Assembly (NCBI GenBank): GCA_018883325.1
Contig: VEQH01000059.1
Coordinates: 1-28,022 of the forward strand
DNA length: 28,022 nt
Direction of reading: 5' to 3'
Source of the DNA: Flavobacteriales bacterium
GTDB lineage: Bacteria; Bacteroidota; Bacteroidia; Flavobacteriales_D; Crocinitomicaceae
Below the pieces are notes generated by a model that worked only from the letters and a program-made list of their open reading frames with translations, searched no databases and was not told the origin of the DNA. Within the stretch, counting starts at the first letter, position 1. Each line of letters begins with the position of its first letter. A program made the position numbers and the translations under genes. Below are positions 1 through 28,022 of this stretch, piece by piece.

Positions 1-535
1 ACTCTGAATTGTCTTCTGAAAGCCCTCCTGCGGGAACGATCATGTGAATATGAGGGTGGTAGCTGAGTGTTTGTCCCCAAGTATGTAAAACTCCAACTGC
101 GCCATATTTTGCCCCTAAATAGTTTGTATTTTTAGCACCTTGAGTAATGGCTTTTGTTGCTGCATAAAAAAGTAAATTATAGGCTTCTTTTTGATTGATA
201 TAAAACAATTTGTTCAGACATTCAGGAATGGTAAATACCAAATGAAAGTACTTGACTGGCGGTAGATTTCCAGAGAGTTTATCAATCCATTTTTCCTTTT
301 TTACAAACTGACATTTTGGACAGTGTCTGTTCCGACAAGAGTTATAAGCTTGCTTGGTATGCTTACATTTATCACATATCTTTAAATGTCCACCAAGTTG
401 TGCGGTTCGACATTTTAGAATATCGTTGAAAGCTTTTTTTTGAACATCAGTAAATTTCTTTTGATGTTCTTCAAAAAAGTTAGCTCGAGTAGCAAAAATG
501 GATGCTATCTCCACCTTTGAACGCTTGTTAGACAT
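1..535 (-). CDS. IS91-family (Y2 HUH, rolling-circle) transposase. Only the N-terminal ~178 aa are present; the 3' end runs off the window.
   Basis: This ORF is missing from the ORF track because it is cut by the window edge. My minus-strand translation from the ATG at 535-533 reads MSNKRSKVEIASIFATRANFFEEHQKKFTDVQKKAFNDILKCRTAQLGGHLKICDKCKHTKQAYNSCRNRHCPKCQFVKKEKWIDKL...YFHLVFTIPE...GAVGVLHTWGQTLSYHPHIHMIVPAGGLSED. It shows the CxxC..CxxC zinc-binding N-domain followed by the HPHIH (HUH) block typical of IS91/IS801-type transposases. Confidence 0.85.
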   Translation of the reverse strand, partial: MSNKRSKVEIASIFATRANFFEEHQKKFTDVQKKAFNDILKCRTAQLGGHLKICDKCKHTKQAYNSCRNRHCPKCQFVKKEKWIDKLSGNLPPVKYFHLVFTIPECLNKLFYINQKEAYNLLFYAATKAITQGAKNTNYLGAKYGAVGVLHTWGQTLSYHPHIHMIVPAGGLSEDNSE

Positions 536-540
536 AGATT

Positions 541-1413
541 CTACACGTTCATTCCTTCCAAGGGAGAGATAACACTTTTTAGGTTTACATTCGTAAGATG
601 TAGATAAACGGAGGTGGTTTTCAAGGAAGTGTGTCCCAAAAATTCTTGAATCAATCGAAGGTTTACTCCTGCTTCCAAAAGGTGCGTTGCGAATGAGTGA
701 CGAAGTGTATGTGCCGAGACATCCTTTGAAATACCTGCTCGCTCTGCGCTTTGTTTGACAATGTAATCAAGTGTTCTATCAGAAATCATCTTTCCTTTTT
801 CACCATTTGGTTCAAAGAGATATGTCGATGGTCTTTCTAACTTGAAATAAGTCCTCAAAAGTTTTAGCGCTTTTGGAGAAAGAATTGTTTGTCGATCTTT
901 TCTTCCTTTTCCTTGCGTTACATTCACCACCATCCTCTGAGAATCAATTGCTTTAGGATTCATTTGGAGTAGTTCCATTTTACGCAAACCCGCTGAATAC
1001 ATTAATGTTAGCATTGCTCGATGCTTGATATTTCTGGTGTTCGAAATCATACTTTCCACTTCTCGGACGGAAAGTACGGTAGGTAGTTTTTTCTCCCTTC
1101 TTGGTCGTTTGATAATGATTCCCTTCCAAGGTTGTTTTAGCACGTCTTGAACAAAAATCTTGAATGCACTAATGTGTTGATTGATATAGGAAGTGGATTT
1201 TTTGTCGATTGCAAGTTGTTGATGCAAATACTTCTTTAATTCATCCTCAGAGATTAAACTTAGTGGTTTTCCTAGCTTCAATTCCATCAATTGCATGCAA
1301 TCACAATAAGCGTCGATAGTGTTGATGGTGTAATTTCGATACTCTAATTCAAATCGAAGCTTTTTGACATCTGTCGATAATTCTCTTTTCATACTGATAA
1401 ATTTTAAGTTCAA
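541..1413 (-). CDS. Tyrosine-type site-specific recombinase/integrase (XerC/D-like, phage integrase family)
   Basis: The 290-aa ORF has an N-terminal SAM-like core-binding region. Its C-terminal catalytic signature reads ...AMLTLMYSAGLRKMEL...HTLRHSFATHLLEAGVNLRLIQEFLGHTSLKTTSVYLH, which supplies the R..HxxR..Y residues. The stop codon (541-543) lies 5 nt upstream of the transposase ATG (535). Confidence 0.9.
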   Translation of the reverse strand: MNLKFISMKRELSTDVKKLRFELEYRNYTINTIDAYCDCMQLMELKLGKPLSLISEDELKKYLHQQLAIDKKSTSYINQHISAFKIFVQDVLKQPWKGIIIKRPRREKKLPTVLSVREVESMISNTRNIKHRAMLTLMYSAGLRKMELLQMNPKAIDSQRMVVNVTQGKGRKDRQTILSPKALKLLRTYFKLERPSTYLFEPNGEKGKMISDRTLDYIVKQSAERAGISKDVSAHTLRHSFATHLLEAGVNLRLIQEFLGHTSLKTTSVYLHLTNVNLKSVISPLEGMNV

Positions 1414-1451: not shown

Positions 1452-1565
1452 TTAGTTCAACTTTTATATACTCGAAACAAATCTTCGCATAGCATTTAAC
1501 ACTATGTAAGCTTGTCGAAAGTTTATTTCGCATCTATCTTCTTTCAAATATATCTAAAAAATGGA

Positions 1566-1941
1566 AGAGTTAGAATTAAATTTAAAATGTAAAATTGTGA
1601 ATTGAAAGTTGATAGTTGAAAGTTTTTCTTCGAGTAGTAAACCTCAATCAAGCATCAAAACTTCTTTCTTCGCGTTAAAATACAAACTCTCATCCACCTT
1701 CCGTCCTCCTCTGACGGAGTCTGATACTCGTCAGAGTCGTCAGACTTCAAAGGATGAAAGCAAATCTCACTTCGAAGTAATGCTATAACAAGATTTTTAT
1801 TCGAGTTATGAATCCCAACCAAAAACCAAAAATCAAGAATCAAACATCAAAAATCTTTTCTTCGCGTTATGAATCCTAATTCAAAATTCAACATTAACAC
1901 TTCGGTAGACTCAGTGCAAGAAATTAAGCATTAAAAATTCA
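1566..1941 (+). repeat. Mosaic intergenic repeat locus 1, same family as loci 2 and 3
   Basis: It contains the shared modules AAAATGTAAAATTG, TTCTTCGAG/TTCTTCGCG punctuation (1626-1634, 1666-1674, 1858-1866) and TTATGAATCCTAATTCAAAATTCAACATTAACACTTCGGTAGACTCAGTGCAAGAAATTAAGCATTAAAAATTC. These match 16515-16570, 16880-16980 and 17050-17157. A unique, GC-richer insert sits at about 1686-1795. The locus runs into the TGA stop (1939-1941) of the vWA gene. Confidence 0.85.
1709..1745. other. Nested or alternative hairpin structure inside the unique insert of repeat locus 1
   Basis: CTCTGACG (1709-1716) pairs with CGTCAGAG (1729-1736), an 8-bp perfect stem with a 12-nt loop. Alternatively GTCTGA (1719-1724) pairs with TCAGAC (1740-1745). 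TCGTCAGA occurs twice in tandem. No U-tract follows on either strand, so this is not a classical terminator. Confidence 0.4.
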
Positions 1942-8934: not shown

Positions 8935-8972
8935 TTTTCTGATTGAAGATAAATAAGATTACTAGCGCTAAA

Positions 8973-10864: not shown

Positions 10865-10867
10865 TGA

Positions 10868-13210: not shown

Positions 13211-13278
13211 CTGTTTGATTAAGAGACCCCGAAATTAAGTAAATGTTATTACAAAAGAAAAGTTAATGAGCAATCGAA

Positions 13279-14664: not shown

Positions 14665-14716
14665 AGTTTGATTTTTTGAGTTTCTAAAAATAGCTATTTT
14701 TTGCGACTTGTGGGTT

Positions 14717-16372: not shown

Positions 16373-17160
16373 AGTTAAAAGTGAAGAGAGAAAAGTTAAG
16401 AGTGAGAAATGTGCTATTAAAAAATGAATTGAAAATGTAAAATTGAATGACAAATTCAGATTACTTCGGTGAAACGATTCACTAGAATTTTCTTCGACTT
16501 ATAAGCCTCAATTAAACATTAACACTTCGACGGACTCAGTGTGGGAAATTAAGCATTAAAAATTCGATTTTCTTCGACCCAAAATTTTTATTCAACATTA
16601 AGCATTAAAAATTCAACATTTAAATAGCTCAATAAAAAATGTTAACCACATAGAAACATAGAAAAAATAGAACCGCTTTGCGGAGAAAAGTTGAAATTAA
16701 ATACAAAATTCAACATAAAAAATTAACACTTCGAGAGGCTCAGTGTAAGAAGTTAAAAGTGAAGAGAGAAAAGTTAAGAGTGAGAAATGTGCTATTAAAA
16801 AATGAATTGAAAATGTAAAATTGAATGACAAATTCAGATTACTTCGGTGAAACGATTCACTAGAATTTTCTTCGAGCCAAAATCCCAATTCAACATTAAC
16901 ACTTCGGCACACTTCGACACACTTCGACGGGCTCAGTGTAAAAGCTCAGTGTAAAGGCTCAGTGCGAGAAATTAAAAATTCAAAATTCGATTTTCTTCGA
17001 GTAGTAAACCCCAACCAAAAATCAAGCATCAAAAACCAAAAATCCCTTCTTCGAGTTATGAATCCTAATTCAAAATTCAACATTAACACTTCGACACACT
17101 TCGACGGGCTCAGTGTAAAAGCTCAGTGTAAAGGCTCAGTGCAAGAAATTCAAAATTAAC
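16373..17160 (+). repeat. Mosaic intergenic repeat locus 2, immediately 3' of the giant gene
   Basis: It contains two identical 125-bp copies (16373-16497 and 16751-16875). TTCTTCGNG punctuation occurs at 16489, 16569, 16867, 16992 and 17047. ACTTCGRCAC is present at x3 (16901-16930) versus x2 (17088-17107), and GCTCAGTG-type units at x3 (16931-16965 and 17108-17142). The family homology ends at about 17157, 3 nt from the TAG of the giant ORF (17161-17163). Confidence 0.9.
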
Positions 17161-20100
17161 CTACGGTGGACTCAAAAAGATAATACTCGGCAAGGTAAAC
17201 GTGCTTATCGTACACGATTGGATGGAGCTTGGACAAGTAGTTGCGGTATTGGTTACAACAACAGAATAAGTTCCTGCGACGCCTGTGGAGAGACTTGGAA
17301 CGTTGCCCGGTGCTGGTACGCCACTTGGAACTGTCCATGCGTAAGAATACGTGCCTGCTGGGCTTGGGGTGGCGGAAACAGTTGTGGTGGTACCCGCACA
17401 AATATTGTTACAATTCACAGCAACTGTTGGACTTGGATTAATCGTTACAGTAGCGGTTGTAGCTGAATTTGTACAGCCTGCAGCATCTGTTGCGGTTAAT
17501 GTGAATGTACCTCCTGTTGACCCCATGGTTACAGTTGGACCTTGCGAGAAGGCATTTGGTGTAAAAGTTACACCTGCTGGACCTGTCCAAGAATAGCTTG
17601 TCATTCCTGCTGGGCCTCCTGTTAATGTCAATGTTCCAGCGATACAAGAGCTTGTGCTTGAAAGTGAAGCCGTTACGTTTGGCAATGCGTTAATGGTCAC
17701 ACTTGCTGTTGTTGTGAAAATCGGACAGCCATTTGCAGCTGGAAGTGTGTAAGTAACGGTGTAAGTTCCGTTTGTACTAGCGTTTGGTGTGATCTCTCCT
17801 GTTGTTGTATTAATTGATAAACCGCTTGGCGTTGCAGAGAAAGAACCGCCTGTTGTTCCACTAAAGTTTACACTTTGAACCGTTGTGATATTTCCACAGA
17901 ATGGCCCACTGTAACTGATGTTTGCCGTTGGCGCAGCGGTGATTGTTACTTGAGTAGTTACACTTACAGCTTGACAACCACCTGCAGCAGGAATGGAATA
18001 AGTTATAGTGTATGGACCTCCTGGAGTACTTGAACTTGGGGTAATTGTTCCATTGAGTGAATTAATTGTTAAACCACTTGGCGTTGCTGAATAAGTACCT
18101 CCTGAAGTTCCTGAGAAAGTTACTGTTTGCGCTCCAGTACTTGAACAGAATGGACTTCCAGAATATGAAATATTAGCTGTTGGTGCACTGATAATAGAAA
18201 CTGTAGCGGTAGCTTGAACTTGTGGACAACCATTTGCTGCTGGAATAATATATTCAACCGTATAATCTCCAACAGCGTTTTGATCGGGTGTAAATTCTCC
18301 TGAATTTGTATTGAAATTTACTAAACCTCCTCCTGTCCAATATGCTCCCGTTTGACTGCCTGTTGTGGTCAATGTTAATGAAGATGAAGTAGAAGAACTT
18401 ACACAAAATGCTCCACTAGAAAGCGATGCCGTTGGTGGATTTGTAATTGTTACTTGTACTGTATTACTTACAACAACAGAGGCACAGCTTGCAACAATTT
18501 TAACAAAATAAAAACCTGAAGAGGTAGGTGTAAAACTTGGAGAAGCACTTGGAGCACCTTGTGAAACTGCTGGACTTGAACAATCATCAGCATTTCTTCT
18601 AAACCACTCATAAGTTAATGAACCAGTTGAAGTTGCAGAAACAGTTAAAGGAGTTACGTTTCCTGCACAAGCATTAACAGCAACAGGTTGGGTAGTTATT
18701 GTTATTGGTTTGTAGGAATTAGGGGTGAAATCTACACCCGCGTAGCGATAGGTGGACGCTAATGTTTTTGTCCAATTGGCTGCTGGATTAGCAGCACCTA
18801 AATCTGTAAAAGATTGAAGTTGAATCCCAATTGCAGATGGAGAGGTGGTCGAATTCGCAGTTGTTGCATAGAGAATAGGATTTGTACCTGAATAATCCAC
18901 AACTAAACCTCTAGCAGTATTTCCCGTTATTTTATAGTTTTCAGCTATAGGCCAAGTTCCTGATGCTGTTTTATTAAATCTTAATACTCCTCTACGCGCA
19001 GCTGCAGATGAACCATCATCCGCCGTATAAATAGTACATCCATCAGGGCTAATTGAAAAATCAATGATATTATTACCTGTGTAACTAAAAATCAATGTAG
19101 CAGTTTGTCCTGTTGTTGTGGGTAAGCCAGAACCAATTTGGTAAATACCTCCGCTAGCTGCTTTCACAGAAACATATAAATTCCCATTAAAGATTTCAAT
19201 ATTTTGAGCATTTATAATTTGATTACTACTACAGATTTGAATTGGAGCTGAATTATTACCGTCAAAATACCAAACACCCCCGACAGGATTATTAGCATTA
19301 CCTCCTGCACAATAAAAACTATTTGCTTGAGGGCCAGGAATTGCACTTGTAAACCTAAGACCTAAATACGGTGATCCAGCAAGCGTAGAAAATGTCTCTG
19401 TTCTAACTGGGCTTGCAGAACCATTAAGTATAACTGTTTTTTTGGGATTAGCAGCTTCTGTTTGAGATGAAGGCGTTGATCCAGTTCCCGGCACAGCTAA
19501 CTGTCCGTTATAACTGTTCATGAAACCTATTAAATTTCCATTGGTAGAAAATGAACCATTTTGGGTTAATGTACCAGAAAAAGGTGCATGATTTAATATA
19601 AAACTCCCCGATCCACTTGGATTCCATTCATCAATTGTAACTGGCACTTGAACGTTTGTTGTAGAGGTTAAAGTTGTTGATCCATCACCTAGTTTATACA
19701 CAACTAAATTACATTCTTGAAAACTATTACAACCAGAATTGTAAGTTATGTTTGAACTGACATTGATCAGTCCTCCACATGCACCACTTGATATATTTGT
19801 TAAAGTCACAACAACATTTTCACCATTTAAAACAGTAGGATTTGTTAAAGCAATAGTCGCTTGTCCTGAACTATTAAGTACAACTGAATTCAAAGGTGTT
19901 GCTGTTGCACCTGTTACAGTATAAGAAACAGTTGCACCCGCTAAACCATTAATGGTAATTGAAGCACCCGAAGAGCATAATACAGGAGGAATACTTGAAA
20001 AAGTTGGATCAGCCACAGTTGTCGGAGCTGCATTAATTGTTACAGAAGTCGATGCAGGTGAAGGGCAACCCGCTGCATTTGTTACTGTAAATGTGTAAGT

Positions 20101-23100
20101 TGTTCCAGGAGCTAAACCACTGATTGTACCTGTTGTTCCTGTTCCAGTTGCAGTTACTCCACCTGGAGAAGCAGTTACAGTCCAAGTGCCCGATGAAGGT
20201 AAACCACTCAAGGCAACTGATCCTGTAGGAACAGCACAGGTTGGTTGGGTAACAGTTCCCGGAATCGGTGCTGATGGTGGTGGAGAAACAGTAACATTTA
20301 AAGTATTTGATGTTCCTGCACAACCATTCAGTGTTGGAATAATGTTATAAACTACTGTCACAACGTTTGAAGCTGTTAACACATCAGCGATTGTTCCTGT
20401 TGTTTGTACCGCAGTAGTTTCTCCTGTAACGTTGATGTTATTGGTAGCATTCCATTCAAATGTTGCACCACTCGGCGAAGAAGTCAATGGAATATTCAAA
20501 GCGACTCCACTACAAACAGTCACAGGCGTATTGGTAATTGTTGGCGGCGCAGTAATTTCCATAGTCACTACACTTGTTACACCCGTATTCGTACAACCGC
20601 CACCACTTTGATACGAAACACTCGTAATCGAATAAGTATAAATTGTTGCAGTACCTGTTGGAACTGAAAGCGGAGTCGTGTTATTTCCTGAAACGTTAAC
20701 AGGAGTTTGCGCAACGCCATTGATCGTATATGCAACAGTTATCGGCAACGATTGCGGATTTGTTACAGTTACAATTGGTGAAGCTGCATTTTGACACGCA
20801 CTTGCAACGCTTGTTGTTAAAGTGGCAGTTGGCGCAGGATTCACCGTAATTATTGCACTTCCACCAGACGATTGAGAACAAGGAGAACCACTTGTGTATG
20901 CAATACTTACTAAATTGTAAGTGAAAGTTCCTGGTGTTCCTGTTGCTACGGCTACATCCGTTGAACTATTTGCAGCAACAATCACAGTACTGTTTACGCC
21001 ACCAAGCGCATAAGTCATTACAACTTCCGCACTTGAGGTATTGGTGAAAGTTAAATTTGTTATACTACCTTGACAAACGGTTGCTGCGCCAGTCATTGTT
21101 CCTGTTGGCAATGGATTGACTGTTACAACAGCGCTTCCTGTTAATGGAGAACTACAAGCGTTAGCACCTGTATATTCAACACTTTCTAAGTTATAAGTAA
21201 AAGTACCGACAGCTGAAGGCGTAAATGTTACAGTTGAAGTAGCATTTGCACTGATGTTAATTGTTTGACTAGCACCTCCATTAAAATTGTAAGTAACAAC
21301 AACACCAGAAGTTAAACTTGGATTGCTAAAGGTTATCGTTGTTGGCGTTGCTGGATTTGTCAAACACAAAGTAGTTGTACCACTTATTGTTGCTGTTGGC
21401 GCAGGAAGCACGTTCAAAGTTGCAGTTTGTCCTGTCAAGGCACTAGAACAAGTACTGTAATTTGCATAAGATACACTTGTCAATGAATAGGTAAAAGTTC
21501 CTGACGGCGTTGTGTTGGGATAAATCGTGTAAGTTCCATTCGCTGGCACAAGTACCGTTGTTGCTGAACCACCTGTAAAAGTGTAAGTTACTTGTTCATC
21601 GTAGGGTCTTGGATTGGTAATTGTAAAACCAGTTGCATTTCCATTTTCACAGACAGTTTCAGCACCGAAAAGGGTTGCTGTTGGTAATTGCAACACAAGC
21701 ACGGAAATTGAACCTGAAACAGGCGACGGACAAGCATTCCCACTGGTGTAACTTGCTGATTCAAGCGTATAAACATAATTTCCAGCTGTAGAAGTAGGTG
21801 CAGTTACTGTGTTTGTTCCCGAAGCAGGAATAGTGATTGTATTTGGCGTTGATCCAATTGTATAGTTAACAGAAACAGCTGTTGAACTGAAATTTGTAAA
21901 AGTCACAGTTGGCGCTGTTGCACCTTGACAAACGGTTGCGTCACCAGTGATTGAAATGGACGGCGTTTGAATCACGGTTATCGTTGCAGAGCCCGTTGCT
22001 GTTGCCGAACAACCTGCACCGCTATTGAGCGCAACACTTACCAAGTTGTAAGTATATGTTCCAGTTGTCGCAGTTGAAACAGGAATAGTTCCCGTTGCAC
22101 CAGCTCCAATAACCATAGTTTGGTTGGGATTTCCTGTAAGATTGTAAGTTACAGTAACCGCAGCTGAGTTTGGATTGCTAATTGAAATATTGGGAGCTGA
22201 AGCACCTTGACAAACGGAAGCCGTTCCAGAAATCGTAACCGTTGGTAAGGGAACAACATTGAAAATTGCTGAACCAGAAGCTGTATTCGTACAACCACCC
22301 GGTGTATTGAAAGCAACTCCTGTCAAAGCGTAGGTAATTGTTCCACTTGTGGCGGTATTAACTCCGACAGTTGCTGTTCCATTTGCAGGTACAAGAAGCG
22401 GAGTGGCAGCAACACCATTTACGGTATATGAAGCAAGTACATCTGAAGCGTTTGTATTGGTAAACGTTACAATTGGCGAAGCTCCATTTTGACAAACAGT
22501 TCCACTTCCAGAAATGGTAACACTTGGTAAAGGCGTTATCGTAACAGTTGCTGTACCTGTTTGTGTCAAAGCACAACTGGGTGTTCCACTTTGAAATTGT
22601 ACAGTTGTTATTGTATAGGTATAAGTTCCAACGGTACTTGTTGGTACTAAAACGGTTGCTGTGCTGTTGCCATTTACCCCAACGTTAAAATTTTCTGGAC
22701 TTCCACCGTTAAGTGTACTGGTGTAATAGACTAAAACTTGATCCGCATTTGGATTGGTAAATGTAATAGTTGGTTGGGTTGCATTTTGACAGACAGTAGT
22801 TGTTCCAGAAATAAAAGCACTAGGCGTTGGGCGCACAGTAATGGTTGAGGAAGCTGTGATTGGAGAACAACCTGGAGGTGTATAAGTGACACCATAAGTT
22901 GTGGTTGAACCTGGTGTTACGATAATAGAAGTCGTTGTTTGTCCACCCGGCGACCAAAGATAAGTTCCACCACCTGAAGAAACAGTTGTCGATAAATTAA
23001 CAGATGTTCCACTACAAATCGTTGATGAAGGTGTTAAAGTTATTGTTGGAGAAGGCGTTACCGTTACCGTTACTTGCTGAGAACTTGGTCCACATGCGTT

Positions 23101-26100
23101 TGTATTCGAAATTGTATAAGTTCCTGAACCTACTGTTGTAGGGTTTCCAACAGAATACGTCAAAGGTCCATCTAATGTTGATGTTGGAGGAGGTGAAACA
23201 AGCGTGGTTAAATTTACATTTCCACAACTTGTAACACTGTTAGTTGTGAGCACTAAATTCGGAGCAACAGTTGTCACATTGATGGAAGTACCAGACAAGG
23301 TAGTATTTGCACAACCTGCTATTGTGTAAACACTTGTAATATTGTAAGAAACATCTTGCGTTGGTGTGACGCTAATCGTATGCGGATTGTTAGAAGTTGT
23401 AAAAGTTGTAGGAGTTGAACCACTTGCTGTTACAGTGTTGTAAGTTACTGTCCAAGGCGCACTACCAGTGAAAGTAAATGTTAAAGTAGAGGATTGATTC
23501 GTTACTGAACAAATATTTGATGGACTTGCGTTTACGGTAGCAGTTGGCGGGTTATTTATCGTTAAAACAGCTGAGTTCGAGTTTACTGTTCCACAAGGTC
23601 CAACAATGGTGTAACGGTAAAGATAACCATTCATTCCTGAGGTTACGCCTGTTAAAGAAAGCGTTGAAGTTGTAACACCAGCGTAAACTCCACCTTGTGG
23701 TACATTGTTCCAAGAACCTCCGTTGTCGGTACTAAATTGCCATTGACCATTGCTTCCTGGTCCTGTGACGTTGGAAGTGAAACTTGTGTTTCCTCCCACA
23801 CATACGCTTGCATTAACAGGTTGTGACAGAAAAGTATTAGGCTGAACAATTATGTTTAAAGTTACTGGCTGAAGTGGACCGCAACAAGAAGAAGTAATGT
23901 TCAAGTTAACTGCAAAAGTTAAATTCGTTGTACCTGTATTTGTGAAAGTAATATTTGTTGAACCACTTGTTGAAGATGCAATTGTTGCAGTTCCACCAGA
24001 GGGAGGATTTGTAACTGTCCAAGAATAAGTTAATCCACCTTGATTAATTGTAGAAGCTGTGAAATTTGCTGTTCCCGGACAAATCGTTGTAGAAGCTGTA
24101 ATGATTGAAGGAGTAGTTGTTGATGCAGCTATTAAAATATTAGTGAAACCTGTATAGTATGTAACATTTGTAGTAATTGTTTTTCTACCAATTGATGAAT
24201 ATTGAGTAGTTAAATTTCCACTTGCTGGCGAAGAACCCGTTCCAAAATTGGTAAAATTTGCAGCAGTTGCACCAGTATGTGTAATATTTGTATTGGTACA
24301 AGAGATGTTGGTAGCTGTAATTACAGGTTGTCCAGCTAGATTGAAATTGGTTATGCTTGTTGCTAAAGGAAGACTAGTACCATAAAAATAAACAGGTACT
24401 GAAACACCATTTCCACCATTTCCGCCTGTTCCACCAGCGCCACCAGCGCCACCAGCACCACCAGCACCACCTCTGTTACAATCACCATCACCGTTTGAAC
24501 ATGGATTTCCTGCGGCGAATGGAATAACTGGACCGCCTGTTCCACCAGCACCACCAGCGCCACCAGCGCCGCCTAATCCAAGTGCTCCTCCGTTTACAAA
24601 GCAATCTACAAGACTTCCGACTGGTGTTACGCAGTTATTTAAAAATAAACCAAAGGAGCTTCCTCCTCCAAAACCACCTGATCCTGCACCGCCTCCGCCT
24701 CCGCCGCCTGAACCACCAGAACCTCCACCACCAGAAGCTTTGCAACCATCATCATCGCATCCAGCACCACCTCCACCTCCTCCACCAGATCCACCAGTAC
24801 CTGCTGTTCCATTTGTACCATAAGATGGATTATAAAACCCTCCTGTATAGTTATTTGTAGCAAGTGTAATTCCTGGATTTCCTGGATTTCCTGGACTACC
24901 ATTACCTCCAGCACCACCATCACCTGGAGAACCTGCACCGTTACTACCCTCTCTAACACCTGCAATACCAGCACTTCCACCACCTGGTCCACTACCTGCT
25001 ATACCTGGATTTCCGTTTGTGCAATTGCTGTACTGATCATCTCCACTTGCGGATCCCCCTCTACCTCCTGCAAAACCATTTGTCGCTGAACCACCAATTA
25101 TTGCTGCATTTGCTCCACCTAATCCTGCGGTACCTCCGTTTCCATAAGCCCCTGGTCCGTCAGATTGACATAATACCAAACCTTGTGATGAATTACCTTT
25201 ACTTCCTGTAATTCCTGAGCCTCCATTAGTTCCTGCTGTACCAGGAGAACCGGCATACCCAGCACCTGCAGCACCTGGTAATATCTGACATCTTACTATA
25301 TCGTAGTTGGAACAATTTGTTAGATAAATACCATAAGTAGAAATCCCTTTTGGATAAGTTGGTGTTGCAGCTGGAGCAGCGGCAGTTGTAATTGTTAAGT
25401 CTTGTAACCTAAAATTACTTTGGTTCAAACCTTGTAATGCTACAAGTCTTCCAGCATCGGGTAAGCCTTCTGGGTTTAAAGCACTTCTTGTAATGGTCGT
25501 TGCCCCTGCTTGACTGGTTTTTGTCGTGTAACCCACGTTATAACCTCCTTCTATTGTCATTGCTGAACCAATAGAAAGAGGGTTATCAAGCGTATAGGTT
25601 CCTGTTTGTAATTTGATAATTGCATTGTTACACGCCGCGAGTAATATAGCATTTGCCAAAGTGGTAGGTGAACCCGCTGCTAATCCTGTACCTCCACCTG
25701 AAGGAGAGGCAAAAATCACATTACACGATGCTGGATTTGCAGATGGTCCTGAAACGGTTGTACTTGCCGTACCTGTACAGCCAGAAGCTGTAGTTACAGT
25801 AACTGTGTAAGTACCAATTCCTCTACCTGTCCAAACAGAAGAAGGAACGTTATTTTGAACATAAGTACCTGTGTTCCAATTATAAGAACAGCTTGAGCAA
25901 TTCACACCATTCACCAAAGAGGTAGCGGTCAAATCTACCGTTCCTCCAGAACAAACAATTGGATTTATTGGAGAAATACTTACCACAGGATTTGCAGCAA
26001 TTGTTACAGTTGTGCTTGTTGTTTTTGTACAGCCGCCATAAGTTACGGTAACGGTGTAAGTTGTTGTTGAGGATGGAGTTACAGTTGTTGAGGAAGTATT

Positions 26101-27150
26101 CGCTGAGTTCGACCAAGCGTAAGTTCCGCCCGATGTAGGTCCGGTTACACTTAAAGTTGTTGAAGCACCCGCACAAATTGTTGCAGAAGGATTTGCACTA
26201 GCGGTTACTGTTCCAAGGTGGTTAAAAGTAGTGCTTTGTCCAACTAATAAAGCATTTCCACAGCGGTCGAGCAAAGTATTTCCGTCATTTCCAACCTTTG
26301 ATGTTATGGTAAATTGCCCTGAACTTGTTGCGTTGTAGTAAACTTGAACCTGATTGGTTGTACCACCTGTTGGACATCCTACACCAATTGCAGAAGTAAT
26401 TGTTGGAGAACCTGGCCCAGAAATTTGAAAATCACTTCCATTTGCAGCTATGGAACCACAAGTCACATTTTCTGAAAGTGTGAGTGTTACATAATTGCCG
26501 TAACAATTGTCAGTAGAAGAAATAATTTGAGGTGCTGTAACATCCAAAAAGGAGGAAGTTCCAGAGAAAGTTAAAGTATATCCATTTTGATCTTGCGTAT
26601 AATTATCCACAATCAATGCGTACGTTTGACCAGCTGTAACGTTTAAACCATTTGATATTGGAGAACCTCCTGCACCAGTACCTTCAACAGCGCCACCGAT
26701 ACTACCAGCATTCATTCCTGTGTTACCATAAGTTCCCGAATAATTACAACGAACCGGTGTCATGTTCGGGATATTTGCACAAGAAGTTCCTGTCAAATCA
26801 TATAAAGCCCAATCGTAATCGTTTGCGGTATTGATATTGAAACCAAAAGAACCCGCTGTTTGAACTGTAAATACATACCAAACTGATGCACGTTCATTAG
26901 TGGTCAAACAAGAATTAAATACCTCTTGTGTTCCATAACCACTATAAGAATTTGGTTGTACATACGTTTGTTGACAAACAGGAATTGCACTAGAACAATC
27001 TTGCTGTGAAAAACCCACAAACGATTGAAAAACAAGAATTAAGAGCGCAAAAAAACCAACGCAACTAGACAATAATCTACTTGATTCATTAGATTTTTTG
27101 GAGAGAAATTTAGATATCAGTGATAGTTTAGTCAAAACTGTGTTCCACAT
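17161..27150 (-). CDS. Giant (3329 aa) modular cell-surface or adhesin-like protein. No recognisable T9SS C-terminal sorting domain is present, so it may be 3'-truncated.
   Basis: It is a single uninterrupted ORF with the signal peptide ...VGFFALLILVFQSFVGFSQQ. The N-terminal Cys-containing module (DCSSAIPVCQQTY...WYVFTV...DWALYDL) is typical of Bacteroidota CHU-large / type-B T9SS cargo. A beta-helix-like segment occupies about 25290-25730 and a Gly-rich/collagen-like core about 24400-25280. Many Ig/PKD-like modules follow, including 8 tandem ~95-aa units (about 20550-22830). A ~335-aa propeller-like module occupies about 18715-19720, and 3 x ~84-aa ISYSG..C modules occupy about 17690-18445. 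The protein ends ...CTISTFTLPSIIFLSPP* directly against repeat locus 2. Confidence 0.9.
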   Translation of the reverse strand: MWNTVLTKLSLISKFLSKKSNESSRLLSSCVGFFALLILVFQSFVGFSQQDCSSAIPVCQQTYVQPNSYSGYGTQEVFNSCLTTNERASVWYVFTVQTAGSFGFNINTANDYDWALYDLTGTSCANIPNMTPVRCNYSGTYGNTGMNAGSIGGAVEGTGAGGSPISNGLNVTAGQTYALIVDNYTQDQNGYTLTFSGTSSFLDVTAPQIISSTDNCYGNYVTLTLSENVTCGSIAANGSDFQISGPGSPTITSAIGVGCPTGGTTNQVQVYYNATSSGQFTITSKVGNDGNTLLDRCGNALLVGQSTTFNHLGTVTASANPSATICAGASTTLSVTGPTSGGTYAWSNSANTSSTTVTPSSTTTYTVTVTYGGCTKTTSTTVTIAANPVVSISPINPIVCSGGTVDLTATSLVNGVNCSSCSYNWNTGTYVQNNVPSSVWTGRGIGTYTVTVTTASGCTGTASTTVSGPSANPASCNVIFASPSGGGTGLAAGSPTTLANAILLAACNNAIIKLQTGTYTLDNPLSIGSAMTIEGGYNVGYTTKTSQAGATTITRSALNPEGLPDAGRLVALQGLNQSNFRLQDLTITTAAAPAATPTYPKGISTYGIYLTNCSNYDIVRCQILPGAAGAGYAGSPGTAGTNGGSGITGSKGNSSQGLVLCQSDGPGAYGNGGTAGLGGANAAIIGGSATNGFAGGRGGSASGDDQYSNCTNGNPGIAGSGPGGGSAGIAGVREGSNGAGSPGDGGAGGNGSPGNPGNPGITLATNNYTGGFYNPSYGTNGTAGTGGSGGGGGGGAGCDDDGCKASGGGGSGGSGGGGGGGAGSGGFGGGSSFGLFLNNCVTPVGSLVDCFVNGGALGLGGAGGAGGAGGTGGPVIPFAAGNPCSNGDGDCNRGGAGGAGGAGGAGGTGGNGGNGVSVPVYFYGTSLPLATSITNFNLAGQPVITATNISCTNTNITHTGATAANFTNFGTGSSPASGNLTTQYSSIGRKTITTNVTYYTGFTNILIAASTTTPSIITASTTICPGTANFTASTINQGGLTYSWTVTNPPSGGTATIASSTSGSTNITFTNTGTTNLTFAVNLNITSSCCGPLQPVTLNIIVQPNTFLSQPVNASVCVGGNTSFTSNVTGPGSNGQWQFSTDNGGSWNNVPQGGVYAGVTTSTLSLTGVTSGMNGYLYRYTIVGPCGTVNSNSAVLTINNPPTATVNASPSNICSVTNQSSTLTFTFTGSAPWTVTYNTVTASGSTPTTFTTSNNPHTISVTPTQDVSYNITSVYTIAGCANTTLSGTSINVTTVAPNLVLTTNSVTSCGNVNLTTLVSPPPTSTLDGPLTYSVGNPTTVGSGTYTISNTNACGPSSQQVTVTVTPSPTITLTPSSTICSGTSVNLSTTVSSGGGTYLWSPGGQTTTSIIVTPGSTTTYGVTYTPPGCSPITASSTITVRPTPSAFISGTTTVCQNATQPTITFTNPNADQVLVYYTSTLNGGSPENFNVGVNGNSTATVLVPTSTVGTYTYTITTVQFQSGTPSCALTQTGTATVTITPLPSVTISGSGTVCQNGASPIVTFTNTNASDVLASYTVNGVAATPLLVPANGTATVGVNTATSGTITYALTGVAFNTPGGCTNTASGSAIFNVVPLPTVTISGTASVCQGASAPNISISNPNSAAVTVTYNLTGNPNQTMVIGAGATGTIPVSTATTGTYTYNLVSVALNSGAGCSATATGSATITVIQTPSISITGDATVCQGATAPTVTFTNFSSTAVSVNYTIGSTPNTITIPASGTNTVTAPTSTAGNYVYTLESASYTSGNACPSPVSGSISVLVLQLPTATLFGAETVCENGNATGFTITNPRPYDEQVTYTFTGGSATTVLVPANGTYTIYPNTTPSGTFTYSLTSVSYANYSTCSSALTGQTATLNVLPAPTATISGTTTLCLTNPATPTTITFSNPSLTSGVVVTYNFNGGASQTINISANATSTVTFTPSAVGTFTYNLESVEYTGANACSSPLTGSAVVTVNPLPTGTMTGAATVCQGSITNLTFTNTSSAEVVMTYALGGVNSTVIVAANSSTDVAVATGTPGTFTYNLVSIAYTSGSPCSQSSGGSAIITVNPAPTATLTTSVASACQNAASPIVTVTNPQSLPITVAYTINGVAQTPVNVSGNNTTPLSVPTGTATIYTYSITSVSYQSGGGCTNTGVTSVVTMEITAPPTITNTPVTVCSGVALNIPLTSSPSGATFEWNATNNINVTGETTAVQTTGTIADVLTASNVVTVVYNIIPTLNGCAGTSNTLNVTVSPPPSAPIPGTVTQPTCAVPTGSVALSGLPSSGTWTVTASPGGVTATGTGTTGTISGLAPGTTYTFTVTNAAGCPSPASTSVTINAAPTTVADPTFSSIPPVLCSSGASITINGLAGATVSYTVTGATATPLNSVVLNSSGQATIALTNPTVLNGENVVVTLTNISSGACGGLINVSSNITYNSGCNSFQECNLVVYKLGDGSTTLTSTTNVQVPVTIDEWNPSGSGSFILNHAPFSGTLTQNGSFSTNGNLIGFMNSYNGQLAVPGTGSTPSSQTEAANPKKTVILNGSASPVRTETFSTLAGSPYLGLRFTSAIPGPQANSFYCAGGNANNPVGGVWYFDGNNSAPIQICSSNQIINAQNIEIFNGNLYVSVKAASGGIYQIGSGLPTTTGQTATLIFSYTGNNIIDFSISPDGCTIYTADDGSSAAARRGVLRFNKTASGTWPIAENYKITGNTARGLVVDYSGTNPILYATTANSTTSPSAIGIQLQSFTDLGAANPAANWTKTLASTYRYAGVDFTPNSYKPITITTQPVAVNACAGNVTPLTVSATSTGSLTYEWFRRNADDCSSPAVSQGAPSASPSFTPTSSGFYFVKIVASCASVVVSNTVQVTITNPPTASLSSGAFCVSSSTSSSLTLTTTGSQTGAYWTGGGLVNFNTNSGEFTPDQNAVGDYTVEYIIPAANGCPQVQATATVSIISAPTANISYSGSPFCSSTGAQTVTFSGTSGGTYSATPSGLTINSLNGTITPSSSTPGGPYTITYSIPAAGGCQAVSVTTQVTITAAPTANISYSGPFCGNITTVQSVNFSGTTGGSFSATPSGLSINTTTGEITPNASTNGTYTVTYTLPAANGCPIFTTTASVTINALPNVTASLSSTSSCIAGTLTLTGGPAGMTSYSWTGPAGVTFTPNAFSQGPTVTMGSTGGTFTLTATDAAGCTNSATTATVTINPSPTVAVNCNNICAGTTTTVSATPSPAGTYSYAWTVPSGVPAPGNVPSLSTGVAGTYSVVVTNTATTCPSSIQSCTISTFTLPSIIFLSPP
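24431..24471 (-). repeat. In-frame 9-bp tandem repeat (CCACCAGCR x4.5 on the plus strand, encoding GAG-type triplets) inside the giant gene
   Basis: The sequence is CCACCAGCG CCACCAGCG CCACCAGCA CCACCAGCA CCACC. A second block of 3 copies lies at 24542-24568. Together these encode GGAGGAGGAGGAGGTGG-type tracts. Confidence 0.9.
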
Positions 27151-27190
27151 TCTAGTTTAAGGTCAACGAATTTAAGAAATTTTAATAAAA

Positions 27191-27198
27191 CAAACTTA
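27191..27198 (-). promoter_or_regulatory. Candidate -7 box TAAGTTTG, 40 nt upstream of the giant-gene ATG
   Basis: The minus strand reads ...ATTAATAAGTTTGTTTTATTAAAATTTCTTAAATTCGTTGACCTTAAACTAGA-ATG, an exact TAnnTTTG match. No convincing -33 TTTG sits at the canonical spacing. Confidence 0.35.
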
Positions 27199-27302
27199 TT
27201 AATTCAATAATAATCAATTGAATCAAACGAAAAATGAATTTCTTTAAAAACAATAGATTCAATCAAGAACTAGATAACGTTTAATTTTTTAAAAGGAAGC
27301 CT

Positions 27303-28022
27303 TTGAAACTTCAAGTTAAGAGAGAAAAGATAAAAATGTGCTAATTAAGAAATGTGCTAATGTGCTAATTAATAAATGAATTGAAAATGTAAAATTGAAA
27401 ATGTAAAATTCAGATTTCGGTGAAATGATTCACAAAATTTTCTTCGCGTTAAAATCCTAATTAAAAATTAACACTTCGATGGGCTCAGTATAAGAAGTTA
27501 AAAGTGAAGAGAGAAGAGTTAAAAGTGAGAAGTGTGCTAATTAATAAATGAATTGAAAATGTAAAATTGAAAATGTAAAATTCAGATTGCTTTGATGAAA
27601 CGATTCGTTAATATTTTCTTCGAGCCAAAATCTTAATTCAACATTAAAAATTAACACTTCGATGGGCCCAGTATAAGAAGTTAAAAGTGAAGAGAGAAGA
27701 GTTAAAAGTGAGAAGTGTGCTAATTGAGGAATGTGCTAATTAATAAAATGAATTGAAAATGTAAAATTGAAAATGTAAAATTCAGATTGCTTCGATGAAA
27801 CGATTCGCTAAAATTTTCTTCGATTAGTAAAACCTAATCAAACATCAAACATCAAAAACTAAAACCCCTTTCTTCGCGTTAAGATTTATCAATAATTTCT
27901 TCGCGTTAAAATCCTAATTAAAAATTAACACTTCGATGGGCTCAGTATAAGAAGTTAAAAGTGAAGAGAGAAGAGTTAAAAGTGAGAAGTGTGCTAATTA
28001 ATAAATGAATTGAAAATGTAAA
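27303..28022 (+). repeat. Mosaic intergenic repeat locus 3, 5' of the giant gene, running off the window end
   Basis: It holds tandem units of about 177-190 bp, with TTCTTCGNG at 27440, 27616, 27806, 27869 and 27897. The unit core is TTAACACTTCGATGGGCTCAGTATAAGAAGTTAAAAGTGAAGAGAGAAGAGTTAAAAGTGAGAAGTGTGCTAATTAATAAATGAATTGAAAATGTAAAATTGAAAATGTAAAATTCAGATTGCTTYGATGAAACGATTCG. A 127-bp perfect duplicate links 27439-27565 to 27896-28022. The orientation matches loci 1 and 2. Confidence 0.9.

What the first reader, a model, noticed from the sequence alone, without database searches (positions are those of the whole stretch)
16373..28022. Unclassified mosaic repeat family in three intergenic loci, bracketing the giant surface-protein gene in direct orientation
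About 2 kb of this 28-kb window (about 1566-1941, 16373-17160 and 27303-28022+) is one AT-rich, non-coding repeat family. It is built from a fixed order of short modules. The order is TTCTTCGNG punctuation; ..AATCCTAATTCAA(A)ATT..; AACACTTCG; GGCTCAGTG; the nearly pyrimidine-free block AGTTAAAAGTGAAGAGAGAAGAGTTAAAAGTGAGAAG; TGTGCTAAT; AATGAATT; GAAAATGTAAAATT; then CAGATTRCTTCGGTGAAACGATTCAC. All copies point the same way, and the arrays sit directly 3' and 5' of the 10-kb giant gene. The spacing between punctuation motifs is irregular: 40/192 bp (plus a TTATTCGAG variant at 1797-1805), 80/298/125/55 bp and 176/190/63/28 bp in the three loci. This rules out CRISPR. No strong conserved palindrome is present, so it is not REP/BIME-like. 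No frame is conserved between copies. Such long repeat-filled spacers are unusual for a compact Bacteroidota genome. Possible roles include recombination substrates that allow deletion or exchange of the giant gene, an sRNA or leader family, arrays of protein-binding sites, or footprints of the neighbouring IS91-like element.
Basis: seen in the sequence. Interest (0 to 1): 0.72.

Follow-up and report, generated by a model that had tools for sequence, protein, structure and literature searches.

The report
Heptamer repeat arrays with REP-like hairpins
Three long gene-free spacers in this Crocinitomicaceae (Flavobacteriales) genome are fast-evolving, satellite-like arrays of degenerate 7-base repeats, studded with decayed copies of a small hairpin that is widespread in Bacteroidota; this is a variant of two poorly understood repeat classes, not a new kind of element.

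Summary
About 1.9 kb in three intergenic loci (1560-1940, 16373-17160, 27303-28022+) is one AT-rich, non-coding, co-oriented repeat family. It matches nothing in Rfam, the plasmid collection or the phage collection.

1. The arrays have a 7-nt periodicity. Lag-7 autocorrelation z is 5.5-7.8, and 3.3-4.4 in each non-redundant segment; controls show none. They are degenerate heptamer tandem arrays (roughly N-A-A-A-A-K-T) that were re-duplicated in larger blocks (125-nt exact copies 378 = 54x7 nt apart; units of about 183-200 nt).

2. The AACACTTCG..GGCTCAGTG module is a hairpin. It belongs to a family found in at least 41 Bacteroidota, Ignavibacteriota and other genomes and 97 viral-collection stretches. 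Stem covariation is very strong: all four Watson-Crick pair types at two stem positions, and 0 of 500 shuffles reach the observed score.

The strand-polar CTTCG "punctuation" (28 versus 1 on the opposite strand) matches the 5' half of that hairpin.

The arrays are absent from syntenic loci of sister species, differ between strains, and break short-read assemblies. Homologous modules lie downstream of giant-gene homologues on two other contigs.

Most likely these are slippage- and recombination-driven satellite DNA seeded with REP-like hairpins. Function is unproven. Closest precedents are the heptamer assemblages of MacGregor (2015) and CGTC/TGTC-tagged REPs.

The parts
1560..1940 (+). Array locus 1, between ORF692 (1939-4017, -) and the integrase gene (541-1413, -). 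It holds heptamer runs (TTGAAAG x3.3; CAAAAAT x5.1), CTTCG half-sites and one hairpin. A GC-richer insert at about 1683-1790 interrupts it.
   Evidence: (lag-7 z 5.5)
16373..17160 (+). Array locus 2, between the giant-gene stop (17161) and the ComM/YifB start (16261). It contains the exact 125-nt duplicate 16373-16497 = 16751-16875, whose copies are 378 = 54x7 nt apart.
   Evidence: (lag-7 z 6.4, lag-14 z 5.9)
27303..28022 (+). Array locus 3, upstream of the giant gene and cut by the window end. It shows higher-order units of about 183-200 nt (133-nt copies at 27433, 27616 and 27890; TRF period 200 x2.5 over 27360-27823).
   Evidence: (lag-7 z 7.8)
16919..16939 (+). REP-like hairpin ACACT-TCGACGGGCTC-AGTGT. 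An identical copy lies at 17096-17116, with further copies at 16726-16746 and 16522-16543. These are the four best window hits of a covariance model built only from unrelated viral-collection contigs.
   Evidence: 16.3 bits, E 0.019; E 0.032; E 0.86; fold -4.6 kcal/mol on the - strand
27471..27491 (+). Diverged hairpin copies ACACT-TCGATGGGCTC-AGTAT, with 4 of 5 stem pairs. Further copies lie at 27654-27674 and 27928-27948, and a related one at 1897-1917 (ACACT-TCGGTAGACTC-AGTGC).
   Evidence: (family D5); all score below the model's E<=10 threshold
16899..16964 (+). Tandemly duplicated hairpin halves: (ACACTTCGAC) x3 followed by (GCTCAGTGTAAAA) x2.6. The pattern recurs at 17086-17141 with 2 and 2.6 copies.
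   Evidence: periods 10 and 13, 95-100% matches
17161..27150 (-). The bracketed giant gene: 3329 aa with PKD-like, Ig-like and CHU_C-associated Ig domains. No Por_Secre_tail hit was found at E<=0.01.
27191..27198 (-). A TAnnTTTG match (Bacteroidota -7 box consensus, from my own knowledge) about 40 nt upstream of the giant-gene ATG. If real, array 3 lies upstream of the promoter and not in the 5'UTR.
   Evidence: consensus match only, about one expected per 2 kb
1497..1525 (+). Degenerate hairpin-like piece in the opposite orientation (ACACTATGTAAGCTTGTCGAAAGTT), between array 1 and the integrase gene.
   Evidence: 7.4 bits, E 3.7; weak
1..1413 (-). Neighbouring mobile-element genes: the N-terminal part of an IS91-like Y2 transposase (1-540, cut by the window end) and a tyrosine integrase (541-1413).
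   Evidence: Phage_integrase 5.3e-39; the translation shows a Zn-finger and the HxHxhV motif; family assignment from my own knowledge

Best explanation
The three loci are non-coding, satellite-like arrays with three layers. (1) The base layer is tandem heptanucleotide repeats, degenerated to a loose consensus N-A-A-A-A-K-T on the + strand (T-rich on the gene-sense strand). (2) Embedded in this layer are full copies, diverged copies and half copies of a small REP-like hairpin (NNNCT-TCGAnnnGCTC-AGNNN) that is widespread in Bacteroidota. The polar 'CTTCG' punctuation matches the 5' half of that hairpin. (3) Larger blocks (10, 13, 14, about 125, about 183-200 and 378 nt) were then re-duplicated within and between loci, giving the 'fixed order of modules'. 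Inferred mechanism: replication slippage, which favours 7-nt steps, plus unequal or ectopic recombination and gene conversion expand and homogenise the arrays. REP-type hairpins are carried along or seed the arrays. The arrays turn over quickly and mark rearrangement-prone spacers, and they are probably co-transcribed with the minus-strand genes as unstructured pyrimidine-rich RNA carrying weak hairpins. Shown here: the anatomy, the periodicity, the reality and distribution of the hairpin family, and the rapid turnover. Inferred: slippage and recombination as the driver, half-site ancestry, transcription, and any fitness effect.
For: Heptamer periodicity: lag-7 z is 5.5, 6.4 and 7.8, and lag-14 z is 3.7-5.9 in the three loci. 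Control intergenic DNA and CDS show none. The signal holds in every non-redundant sub-segment (z 3.3-4.4). The register is visible over more than 200 nt. TRF finds periods of 7 and 14 only in the arrays, while CDS repeats have periods of mostly 6, 9 or 12. Block duplication: an exact 125-nt copy at a spacing of 378 = 54x7 nt, and a period-200 array. Hairpin family: a pattern that left the five central bases free returned 41 genome loci, 33 of which carry ACAAG or ACAGG there and 32 of which carry the pairing GT. A further 97 stretches came from the viral collection. Stem pairs are Watson-Crick in 95/103 and 91/103 instances, with CG, GC, AT and TA all used. 0 of 500 shuffles reach the covariation score, and slid controls collapse. 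A model built from those instances ranks four locus-2 copies as its top window hits. The hairpin is REP-like in placement: flanking genes are co-directional or convergent in 108 of 113 intergenic cases and divergent in 5. Rapid turnover: sister-species loci (ComM 94-97% identical) have only about 100-140 nt upstream of ComM (a 5-heptamer mini-array), no giant gene and no array. A same-species Logan contig has a different array version. Same-species contigs L001 and L170 end at the array edges. Lack of structure: whole units fold worse than shuffles (z +1.1 to +1.3), and the + strand is 58-61% purine in loci 2 and 3. Precedent: Flavobacteriia have long intergenic 'assemblages of heptamer repeats' that are absent from close relatives and break assemblies (PMC4679880). 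Heptamer SSRs are over-represented in bacteria, which has been attributed to polymerase slippage (PMC4692102).
Against: Slippage alone does not explain the extreme strand polarity of CTTCG (28:1). It also does not explain why the same module order and orientation recur downstream of giant-gene homologues only about 70% identical in protein. Both could indicate selection or a directed mechanism. Exact purine-rich heptamer words (GTTAAAAGTGAAGAGAGAA) recur in unrelated metagenome contigs, which hints at a shared constraint. The window hairpins lack the (T)GAC tag and have diverged loops. Only locus-2 copies reach E<1 with the family model, so treating the CTTCG motifs as half-sites is an inference. 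The source genome was not in the searchable collections, so genome-wide copy number and placement are unknown.
Confidence: 0.55

Rival explanations
1. The arrays are functional cis-acting elements. On the gene-sense transcript (or as single-stranded DNA), the phased T-rich heptamers and polar CGAAG/hairpin motifs would form a landing pad for a protein with a footprint of about 7 nt (cold-shock or OB-fold protein, S1) or for Rho. This would set termination, stability or coupling of the giant adhesin gene and its neighbours.
For: The sense strand is unstructured and pyrimidine-rich. Motif polarity is strict and matches gene direction. The 3' linkage to giant-gene homologues is conserved on L184 and L185. 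The same heptamer words recur on unrelated contigs. MacGregor proposed Csp, S1 or CsrA as binders of heptamer repeats, with one CspB per heptamer (PMC4679880). No intrinsic terminator lies in the arrays, so another termination mode would be needed after a 10-kb gene.
Against: There is no expression or binding data. The arrays are absent at the orthologous ComM spacer of close relatives and vary between strains, which is unlike a conserved regulator. Array 3 probably lies upstream of the giant-gene promoter. The two N-terminal homologues examined have no arrays upstream.
Confidence: 0.2
2. The arrays are recombination substrates: direct repeats that bracket the giant gene so that it can be deleted, duplicated or swapped (cassette exchange or phase variation).
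For: The arrays sit in direct orientation on both sides of the gene. The locus is a synteny breakpoint relative to sister species, which lack the giant gene. MacGregor also inferred a rearrangement role. A 27-nt exact match between arrays 2 and 3 and a 39-nt match between arrays 1 and 2 are near the minimal length for RecA-dependent exchange (my own knowledge).
Against: Identity between the bracketing arrays is low (70-74% over 133 nt), so exchange would be rare. No strain lacking only the gene was found. Array 1 brackets nothing comparable. Any dispersed repeat is a passive recombination substrate, so this may be a consequence and not the function.
Confidence: 0.12
3. The arrays are footprints or non-autonomous derivatives (MITE-like) of a transposable element, for example the adjacent IS91-like/integrase unit or a REP-mobilising transposase.
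For: IS91-like and integrase genes abut array 1. The hairpin family is multi-copy and dispersed like REPs. Nested or half-duplicated hairpins (L037) could come from insertion into resident copies.
Against: No terminal inverted repeats or target duplications bound the arrays. Arrays 2 and 3 have no transposase nearby. A GIY-YIG gene seen inside one hairpin cluster occurs in only 3 of 170 loci. The literature names no dedicated transposase for CGTC-type REPs. Array lengths and contents differ at every locus.
Confidence: 0.05
4. The arrays encode a family of structured small RNAs or leaders.
For: They are intergenic, repeated and strand-polar, and the hairpin module shows covariation across taxa.
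Against: Whole units are less stable than shuffles on both strands. There is no Rfam hit even at E<=10. Only the 21-nt hairpin is structured, and it is weak here (-3 to -4.6 kcal/mol). No promoter or terminator signals frame a unit.
Confidence: 0.03

Closest known systems
Intergenic assemblages of heptamer direct repeats (TAACTGA and relatives) in Beggiatoaceae, Cyanobacteria and Flavobacteriia (MacGregor 2015, PMC4679880); cyanobacterial STRR heptamers (my own knowledge)
   Same: The period is 7 nt. The arrays are long intergenic mixtures of several related heptamers, absent from the same spacer in close relatives. Contigs break in the repeats, and function is unknown. The metagenome contig L045, retrieved with a window word, mixes GTTAAAA/GTGAAGA with GAACTGA-type heptamers.
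   Different: Here the heptamers are strongly degenerated (lag-7 identity about 0.4). They are A-tract type, not TAACTGA. They are organised into higher-order blocks shared by three loci and interleaved with hairpin modules and polar CTTCG motifs. They are not placed immediately upstream of start codons.
CGTC/TGTC-tagged REP superfamily (Di Nocera et al. 2013, PMC3733652)
   Same: For the wider hairpin family: a (T)GTC tag on one side in about half of the copies; the stem starts with A(T); total length is 21 nt; copies often form head-to-head dimers with differing stems; they lie mostly downstream of genes; no dedicated transposase is known.
   Different: The published families have 8-9 bp Watson-Crick stems and 4-5 nt loops. 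This family has 5 Watson-Crick pairs and a conserved 11-nt 'loop', readable as tandem G.A pairs, one closing pair and a pentaloop only by inference. The published list covers Chlorobi, not Flavobacteriia. The window copies lack the tag.
BIMEs (mosaics of REPs) in Enterobacteria
   Same: Both are intergenic mosaics of short modules that include hairpins, located between co-directional genes.
   Different: BIMEs alternate REP orientation with fixed short linkers and carry GTAG-tagged, GC-rich, strong palindromes. Here all modules are co-oriented, AT-rich, heptamer-phased and hardly structured.
Non-coding satellite families in prokaryotes (Subirana and Messeguer 2019, PMC6749651)
   Same: This is a non-coding tandem-repeat family present at several loci, which that survey found to be rare (seen only in Leptospira interrogans and Methanocella conradii).
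   Different: Those families have long, well-conserved units. Here a short 7-nt base period carries degenerate higher-order blocks.

Membership tests
Heptamer tandem-repeat arrays (long SSR / STRR-like / MacGregor assemblages) | Tandem periodicity of 7 nt in non-coding DNA | tested here: met
   Lag-7 and lag-14 autocorrelation z is 3.3-7.8 in all loci and sub-segments, with none in controls. TRF finds period-7 and period-14 rows only in the arrays.
Heptamer tandem-repeat arrays (long SSR / STRR-like / MacGregor assemblages) | Several related heptamers mixed within long intergenic spacers, variable between close relatives | tested here: met
   Register printout; sister loci lack the arrays; a same-species contig differs.
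Heptamer tandem-repeat arrays (long SSR / STRR-like / MacGregor assemblages) | Near-perfect unit identity, as in a classical SSR | tested here: not met
   Only short perfect runs exist (2.9-5.1 copies, 72-100% matches). Overall lag-7 identity is about 0.4.
REP-like hairpin family NNNCT-TCGACARGCTC-AGNNN(-TGAC) | 5-bp stem maintained by compensatory changes around the conserved 11-nt centre | tested here: met
   Family level. Window copies have 5/5 pairs at 16522, 16726, 16919 and 17096, and 4/5 at 1897, 27471, 27654 and 27928.
REP-like hairpin family NNNCT-TCGACARGCTC-AGNNN(-TGAC) | Significant match to a model built from independent members | tested here: inconclusive
   Four locus-2 copies are the top hits (E 0.019-0.86). 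The copies in loci 1 and 3 fall above E 10.
REP-like hairpin family NNNCT-TCGACARGCTC-AGNNN(-TGAC) | 3' (T)GAC tag | tested here: not met
   Window copies continue with TAA, CAA, GGG or CGA. 19 of 41 genome hits carry GAC, and 8 of 41 are of the same tag-less 'AAA' type.
CGTC-tagged REPs (Di Nocera 2013) | CGTC/TGTC tag, 8-9 bp stem starting with AT, 4-5 nt loop, CCA-like tail | tested here: inconclusive
   The tag, the AT start and the total length fit the wider family. A Watson-Crick stem of 8-9 bp is not present. The tandem G.A reading is an inference, supported only by a 6-fold excess of the GA..GA template over controls. The consensus figure of the paper could not be read.
GTAG REPs / BIMEs with RAYT | GTAG tag, strong GC-rich palindrome, alternating orientation, RAYT gene in the genome | tested here: not met
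   There is no GTAG tag; all copies are co-oriented; the folds are weak. The presence of a RAYT could not be tested without the genome.
CRISPR array | Identical direct repeats at a regular spacing with unique spacers | tested here: not met
   Spacings are irregular and the 'spacers' are themselves repeated.
MITE / IS end | Defined unit with terminal inverted repeats and target-site duplication | tested here: not met
   No inverted repeats bound the units. No match in the plasmid or phage collections. ISfinder was not available.
Any Rfam family | Covariance-model hit at the gathering score | tested here: not met
   0 hits at the gathering score; only chance snoRNA-type hits at E 0.85-8.6. The hairpin also gave no hit in 18 other loci.

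The most novel reading that the evidence does not exclude
The arrays are not junk. They would be a dedicated, strand-polar cis-element class of Bacteroidota: phased T-rich heptamers plus CGAAG/hairpin motifs on the sense strand would recruit a single-strand-binding factor with a 7-nt footprint, or Rho. That factor would terminate, insulate or tune very long T9SS adhesin transcripts. The small hairpin (5 bp, tandem G.A pairs, pentaloop, GTC tag) would be the recognition module of an as yet unidentified protein or mobilising enzyme shared across Bacteroidota and Ignavibacteriota.
Probability: 0.15. Interest if true: 0.8.

Novelty: new variant of a known kind. Interest (0 to 1): 0.5.

Why it matters
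Bacterial genomes are usually described as almost free of satellite DNA. Here about 7% of a 28-kb window is satellite-like DNA with a short base period, higher-order blocks and rapid turnover, placed at a synteny breakpoint next to a 10-kb surface-protein gene. This gives a concrete, testable case for three questions. Why are heptamer repeats over-represented in bacteria? Do such arrays drive rearrangement or regulate giant adhesin genes? What recognises the very widespread, covariation-supported 21-nt hairpin, which is absent from Rfam? On the practical side, these arrays explain contig breaks around giant genes in short-read Flavobacteriales assemblies.

Tried and rejected
- Rfam at gathering and permissive thresholds gave nothing relevant.
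- The source genome is not in genome contigs, and exact-protein look-ups returned only short Logan contigs. Genome-wide copy number and neighbourhood bias could therefore not be measured.
- GIY-YIG association: a GIY-YIG gene lies inside a hairpin cluster in Lutibacter flavus (L037), but tblastn found it in only 3 of 170 loci. Idea dropped.
- Other window modules as widespread elements: TTCGRTGAAAYGATTCRC gave only chance coding hits, and TTTTCTTCGAGCCAAAAT gave none in the viral collection.
- The TTCTTCGAG/CGCG modules do not fold as hairpins (0 kcal/mol).
- Structured-RNA reading of whole units: the z-scores are positive.
- Co-localisation of hairpins with heptamer arrays in other genomes: strong lag-7 arrays lie close to the hairpin in only about 5 of 41 loci (3 within 150 nt by the script's own count, 2 more about 220 nt away). 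After allowing for both being intergenic, I do not regard this as significant.
- Orientation of the purine-rich word relative to genes on the metagenome contigs was mixed and partly due to chance genic hits.
- Literature searches for the hairpin sequence found nothing.
- A full-length giant-protein search timed out, so the N- and C-terminal parts were searched instead.
- Bacteroidota-type promoter boxes are not enriched in the arrays.

Full report
**Setting.** The window has about 36% GC. Most genes lie on the minus strand: an IS91-like transposase fragment (1-540), an integrase (541-1413), a 692-aa ORF (1939-4017), YggS, DUF1015, a TonB-dependent receptor, a PETase-like T9SS cargo protein, ComM/YifB (14717-16261), and a 3329-aa PKD/Ig-rich giant protein (17161-27150). 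ComM homologues place the organism in the Crocinitomicaceae, order Flavobacteriales.

**Checking the observation.** The repeat finder confirms one co-oriented family in three intergenic loci:
- 133-nt copies at 16688, 27433, 27616 and 27890 (70-98% identity);
- an exact 125-nt duplicate, 16373-16497 = 16751-16875;
- a 59-nt module in six copies across all three loci;
- 88 nt at 90% identity between 1824-1911 and 17013-17100.

None of the five inverted pairs reported has both arms inside the arrays. GC falls to 0.26-0.32 with positive AT skew. Rfam gives no hit at gathering thresholds, and only chance snoRNA-type hits at E 0.85-8.6. The plasmid and phage collections give no match.

- Autocorrelation peaks sharply at lags 7 and 14 in all three loci (z 5.5, 6.4 and 7.8 at lag 7; z 3.7-5.9 at lag 14). 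A control promoter spacer, the non-repeat part upstream of the giant gene and a CDS show no peak.
- The signal persists in every non-redundant sub-segment (z 3.3-4.4).
- Printed in 7-nt register, the phase holds for more than 200 nt: GTTAAAA GTGAAGA GAGAAGA GTTAAAA GTGAGAA GTGTGCT AATTAAT AAATGAA TTGAAAA TGTAAAA ...; CCAAAAA CCAAAAA TCAAGAA TCAAACA TCAAAAA.
- TRF finds period-7 and period-14 repeats only inside the arrays, while coding repeats have periods of mostly 6, 9 or 12.
- The two exact 125-nt copies are 378 = 54x7 nt apart.

The 'modules' are therefore diverged heptamers that were re-duplicated as larger blocks. This resembles a higher-order satellite structure.

- I scanned one genome per species with ATTAACACTTCGNNNNNCTCAGT. 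It returned 41 single-copy loci in very diverse Bacteroidota, Ignavibacteriota and a few other genomes.
- The five free bases are ACAAG or ACAGG in 33 of 41 loci. The next two bases are GT, which pair with AC, in 32 of 41. GAC follows in 19 of 41. These are relatives, not chance hits.
- In Lutibacter flavus, ten copies occur in 8 kb as inverted pairs. The five flanking bases are complementary within each arm (AGTCT/AGACT; ACACT/AGTGT) but mismatched between arms.
- A scan of the viral collection that left the stem free (TTCGACARGCTCAGNNTGAC) gave 97 stretches. In 103 distinct instances the two free stem positions are Watson-Crick in 95 and 91 cases, using CG, GC, AT and TA.
- The count of structure pairs gives 0 of 500 shuffles reaching the covariation score, and the slid controls collapse.
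- The family is absent from Rfam, and I found no paper containing its sequence.
- Intergenic copies lie mostly between co-directional or convergent genes (108 of 113; only 5 in divergent spacers). There is a 2:1 bias for flanking genes to be antisense to the TTCGAC strand, which is the arrangement in the window. These instances are not all independent.
- On that gene-sense strand the centre reads CT-GA-G-[CYTGT]-C-GA-AG, which could form tandem G.A pairs, a closing pair and a pentaloop. This is my inference. It is supported only by a 6-fold excess of the GA..GA template over controls in unbiased loci, and by a second family (GTC-ATTCC-GA-C-TGGAA-G-GA-GGAAT in L186) with a swapped closing pair. 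The nearest-neighbour fold does not predict it.

**The window's hairpin copies.** A covariance model built only from the viral-collection instances ranks four locus-2 copies as its best window hits, all on the + strand: 16919-16939 and 17096-17116 (E 0.019), 16726-16746 (E 0.032) and 16522-16543 (E 0.86). The copies in loci 1 and 3 keep 4 of 5 stem pairs but have diverged centres and lack the GAC tag. Eight of the 41 genome hits share this tag-less 'AGTGTAAA' form. The window hairpins are weak, at -3 to -4.6 kcal/mol.

CTTCG occurs 28 times on the + strand in the arrays (14.8 per kb against 0.8 per kb elsewhere), and its complement occurs once. All three CTTCG contexts (TTTTCTTCGAG, AACACTTCGAC, GATTRCTTCGRT) match the 5' half of the hairpin. 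Tandemly duplicated halves are directly visible: (ACACTTCGAC)x3 then (GCTCAGTGTAAAA)x2.6 at 16899-16964, and again at 17086-17141. I therefore read the punctuation as hairpin half-sites. This is an inference.

**Structure and signals.** Whole units fold worse than dinucleotide shuffles on both strands (z +1.1 to +1.3). The + strand is 58-61% purine in loci 2 and 3, so sense transcripts would be unstructured and pyrimidine-rich. No intrinsic terminator or promoter consensus frames the units. A TAnnTTTG box at 27198 would put array 3 upstream of the giant-gene promoter (consensus match only).

**Evolutionary dynamics.**
- Sister-species contigs (ComM 94-97% identical) keep the ComM-PETase-TonB-DUF1015-YggS block. 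They have only about 100-140 nt upstream of ComM, a different upstream gene, no giant gene, no lag-7 arrays and no BLAST similarity to the arrays.
- Sequence homology upstream of ComM ends about 85 nt before the start codon. At that point the sister species carry a five-heptamer mini-array (GATTAAA AATTAAA CATTAAT AATTCAA AATTCTC), and the window carries 0.8 kb of array.
- A Logan contig (L001) with a 100% identical ComM has a different array version. L001 and a second same-species contig, L170, both stop at array edges.
- The arrays are therefore young, variable and probably multi-copy in the genome.
- Two JGI contigs carry homologues of the giant protein's C-terminus (71% and 69% identity). 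Both have, directly after the stop codon, sequences homologous to the window modules, in the same order and the same antisense orientation (77% over 75 nt, E 4.6e-10; 78% over 59 nt). Both are also heptamer-periodic (z 4.0 and 2.7).
- Two N-terminal homologues have no such arrays upstream.
- The 3' association with this gene family therefore recurs. Bracketing on both sides was seen only in this window.

**Literature.** MacGregor (2015, PMC4679880) described TAACTGA and other heptamer direct repeats in Beggiatoaceae, Cyanobacteria and five Bacteroidetes. These include long intergenic 'assemblages of heptamer repeats' in Gramella, Aequorivita and Elizabethkingia. They are missing from close relatives and break contigs, and the paper suggests roles in rearrangement or in binding of Csp, S1 or CsrA. 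Heptamer SSR excess in bacteria has been attributed to polymerase slippage (PMC4692102). Multi-locus non-coding satellite families are reported as rare in prokaryotes (PMC6749651). Di Nocera et al. (2013, PMC3733652) defined CGTC/TGTC-tagged REPs: stems of 8-9 bp starting with AT, loops of 4-5 nt, head-to-head dimers, and no dedicated transposase. The wider hairpin family resembles these in tag, AT start, total length, dimer habit and placement, but not in Watson-Crick stem length. Their Bacteroidetes/Chlorobi examples are Chlorobi.

**Conclusion.** The finding is real and larger than chance, but it is a composite of two known, poorly understood kinds of repeat: degenerate heptamer tandem arrays and REP-like hairpins. 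They are organised here in an unusual higher-order, strand-polar, multi-locus form.

The best-supported mechanism is expansion in place by slippage with a 7-nt step, plus unequal or ectopic recombination and conversion. Hairpins and their halves would be carried along or would seed the arrays. Rearrangement-proneness and assembly breaks follow as consequences (confidence about 0.55).

Three observations keep a functional cis-element reading alive (about 0.2): the strict polarity, the unstructured sense strand and the recurrent 3' linkage to giant-gene homologues. Cassette exchange, an IS/MITE origin and a structured sRNA are less likely.

Noticed in passing
L002-L042 and L073-L169 (e.g. L037:4380-5640, L108, L114, L120, L140): A 21-nt hairpin family, NNNCT-TCGACARGCTC-AGNNN-(T)GAC, is widespread in Bacteroidota, Ignavibacteriota and viral-collection contigs. 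Its stem covariation is textbook-quality (all four Watson-Crick types at two positions). It is often found as inverted pairs with different stems. It has no Rfam family and I found no literature hit. The reverse strand translates to the 'VTLSLSK / RHPELVEG'-type peptides that I recall from spurious ORFs (my own recollection).
   Followed up: partly
L002, L020, L022, L024 (Winogradskyella); L003, L015, L034, L036 (Aequorivita): The hairpin sits at the same, apparently orthologous, intergenic position with conserved flanks in four species of each genus. At these sites it persists over speciation times, unlike the window arrays.
   Followed up: no
L037:4600-4690, 4770-4810, 5430-5480: Composite 'nested' hairpins occur (GTCACACTCAGCTGAGCCTGTC[CTGAGCTTTGCCGAAGG]GTCGAAGTGT), as if one element lay inside the loop of another. 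This echoes the duplicated half-sites at window 16899-16964.
   Followed up: no
L037:4942-5253 (+): A 103-aa GIY-YIG nuclease gene lies inside a dense hairpin cluster (Pfam 4.9e-20). Homologues occur in only 3 of 170 loci, so there is no general association.
   Followed up: yes
window 1683-1790; L185:1440-1520: A GC-richer insert interrupts array 1 and has its own inverted repeats (CCTCTGACGGAG ... CTCGTCAGAG). A similar CCGTCAG...CTGACGG-type piece lies downstream of the giant-gene homologue on L185. It may be a second small element travelling with the arrays.
   Followed up: no
L186:60-180: Upstream of an N-terminal homologue of the giant gene lies a different hairpin of the same template (GTC-ATTCC-GA-C-TGGAA-G-GA-GGAAT) with a partner TGTCATAGAAATCGGAATGAC. 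The inner closing pair is swapped (C-G instead of G-C), which fits a superfamily with tandem G.A pairs.
   Followed up: partly
window 8935-16261 compared with L068-L071: Synteny differs from the sister species. They have a 958-aa WG_beta_rep gene between ComM and the PETase-like gene, frr/pyrH after YggS, and an 866-aa gene (plus ParDE or ORF6N) upstream of ComM. The window has none of these, so both ends of the ComM-YggS block are rearranged.
   Followed up: partly
window 25351-27150 (-): The first 600 aa of the giant protein correspond to a free-standing protein of about 650 aa, with no Pfam domain, in many Bacteroidota (45-62% identity over 90% or more of the query). This suggests the giant gene is a fusion of an N-terminal module with PKD/Ig repeat arrays.
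   Followed up: no
window 24404-24990 (-): There is a GC-rich (0.51) stretch of 9-nt repeats encoding Gly-rich GGA/GGT-type tracts inside the giant gene.
   Followed up: no
L047:1700-1790, L063:1-90: The purine-rich heptamer word GTTAAAAGTGAAGAGAGAA directly follows sequence that looks like a tRNA 3' end on two unrelated metagenome contigs. L053 has a pure (GTTAAAA)n run and L045 has more than 250 nt in perfect 7-nt register.
   Followed up: no
L039:437-531 (+): A Flavo-1 RNA (RF01705, 53.9 bits) lies on a Chryseobacterium MAG contig. It is unrelated to the hairpin at 2155.
   Followed up: no
window 1-1413 (-): An IS91-like Y2 transposase gene is preceded by a tyrosine integrase gene. This pairing is one I recall as common in Bacteroidota (my own knowledge). 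Its upstream end abuts array 1.
   Followed up: partly
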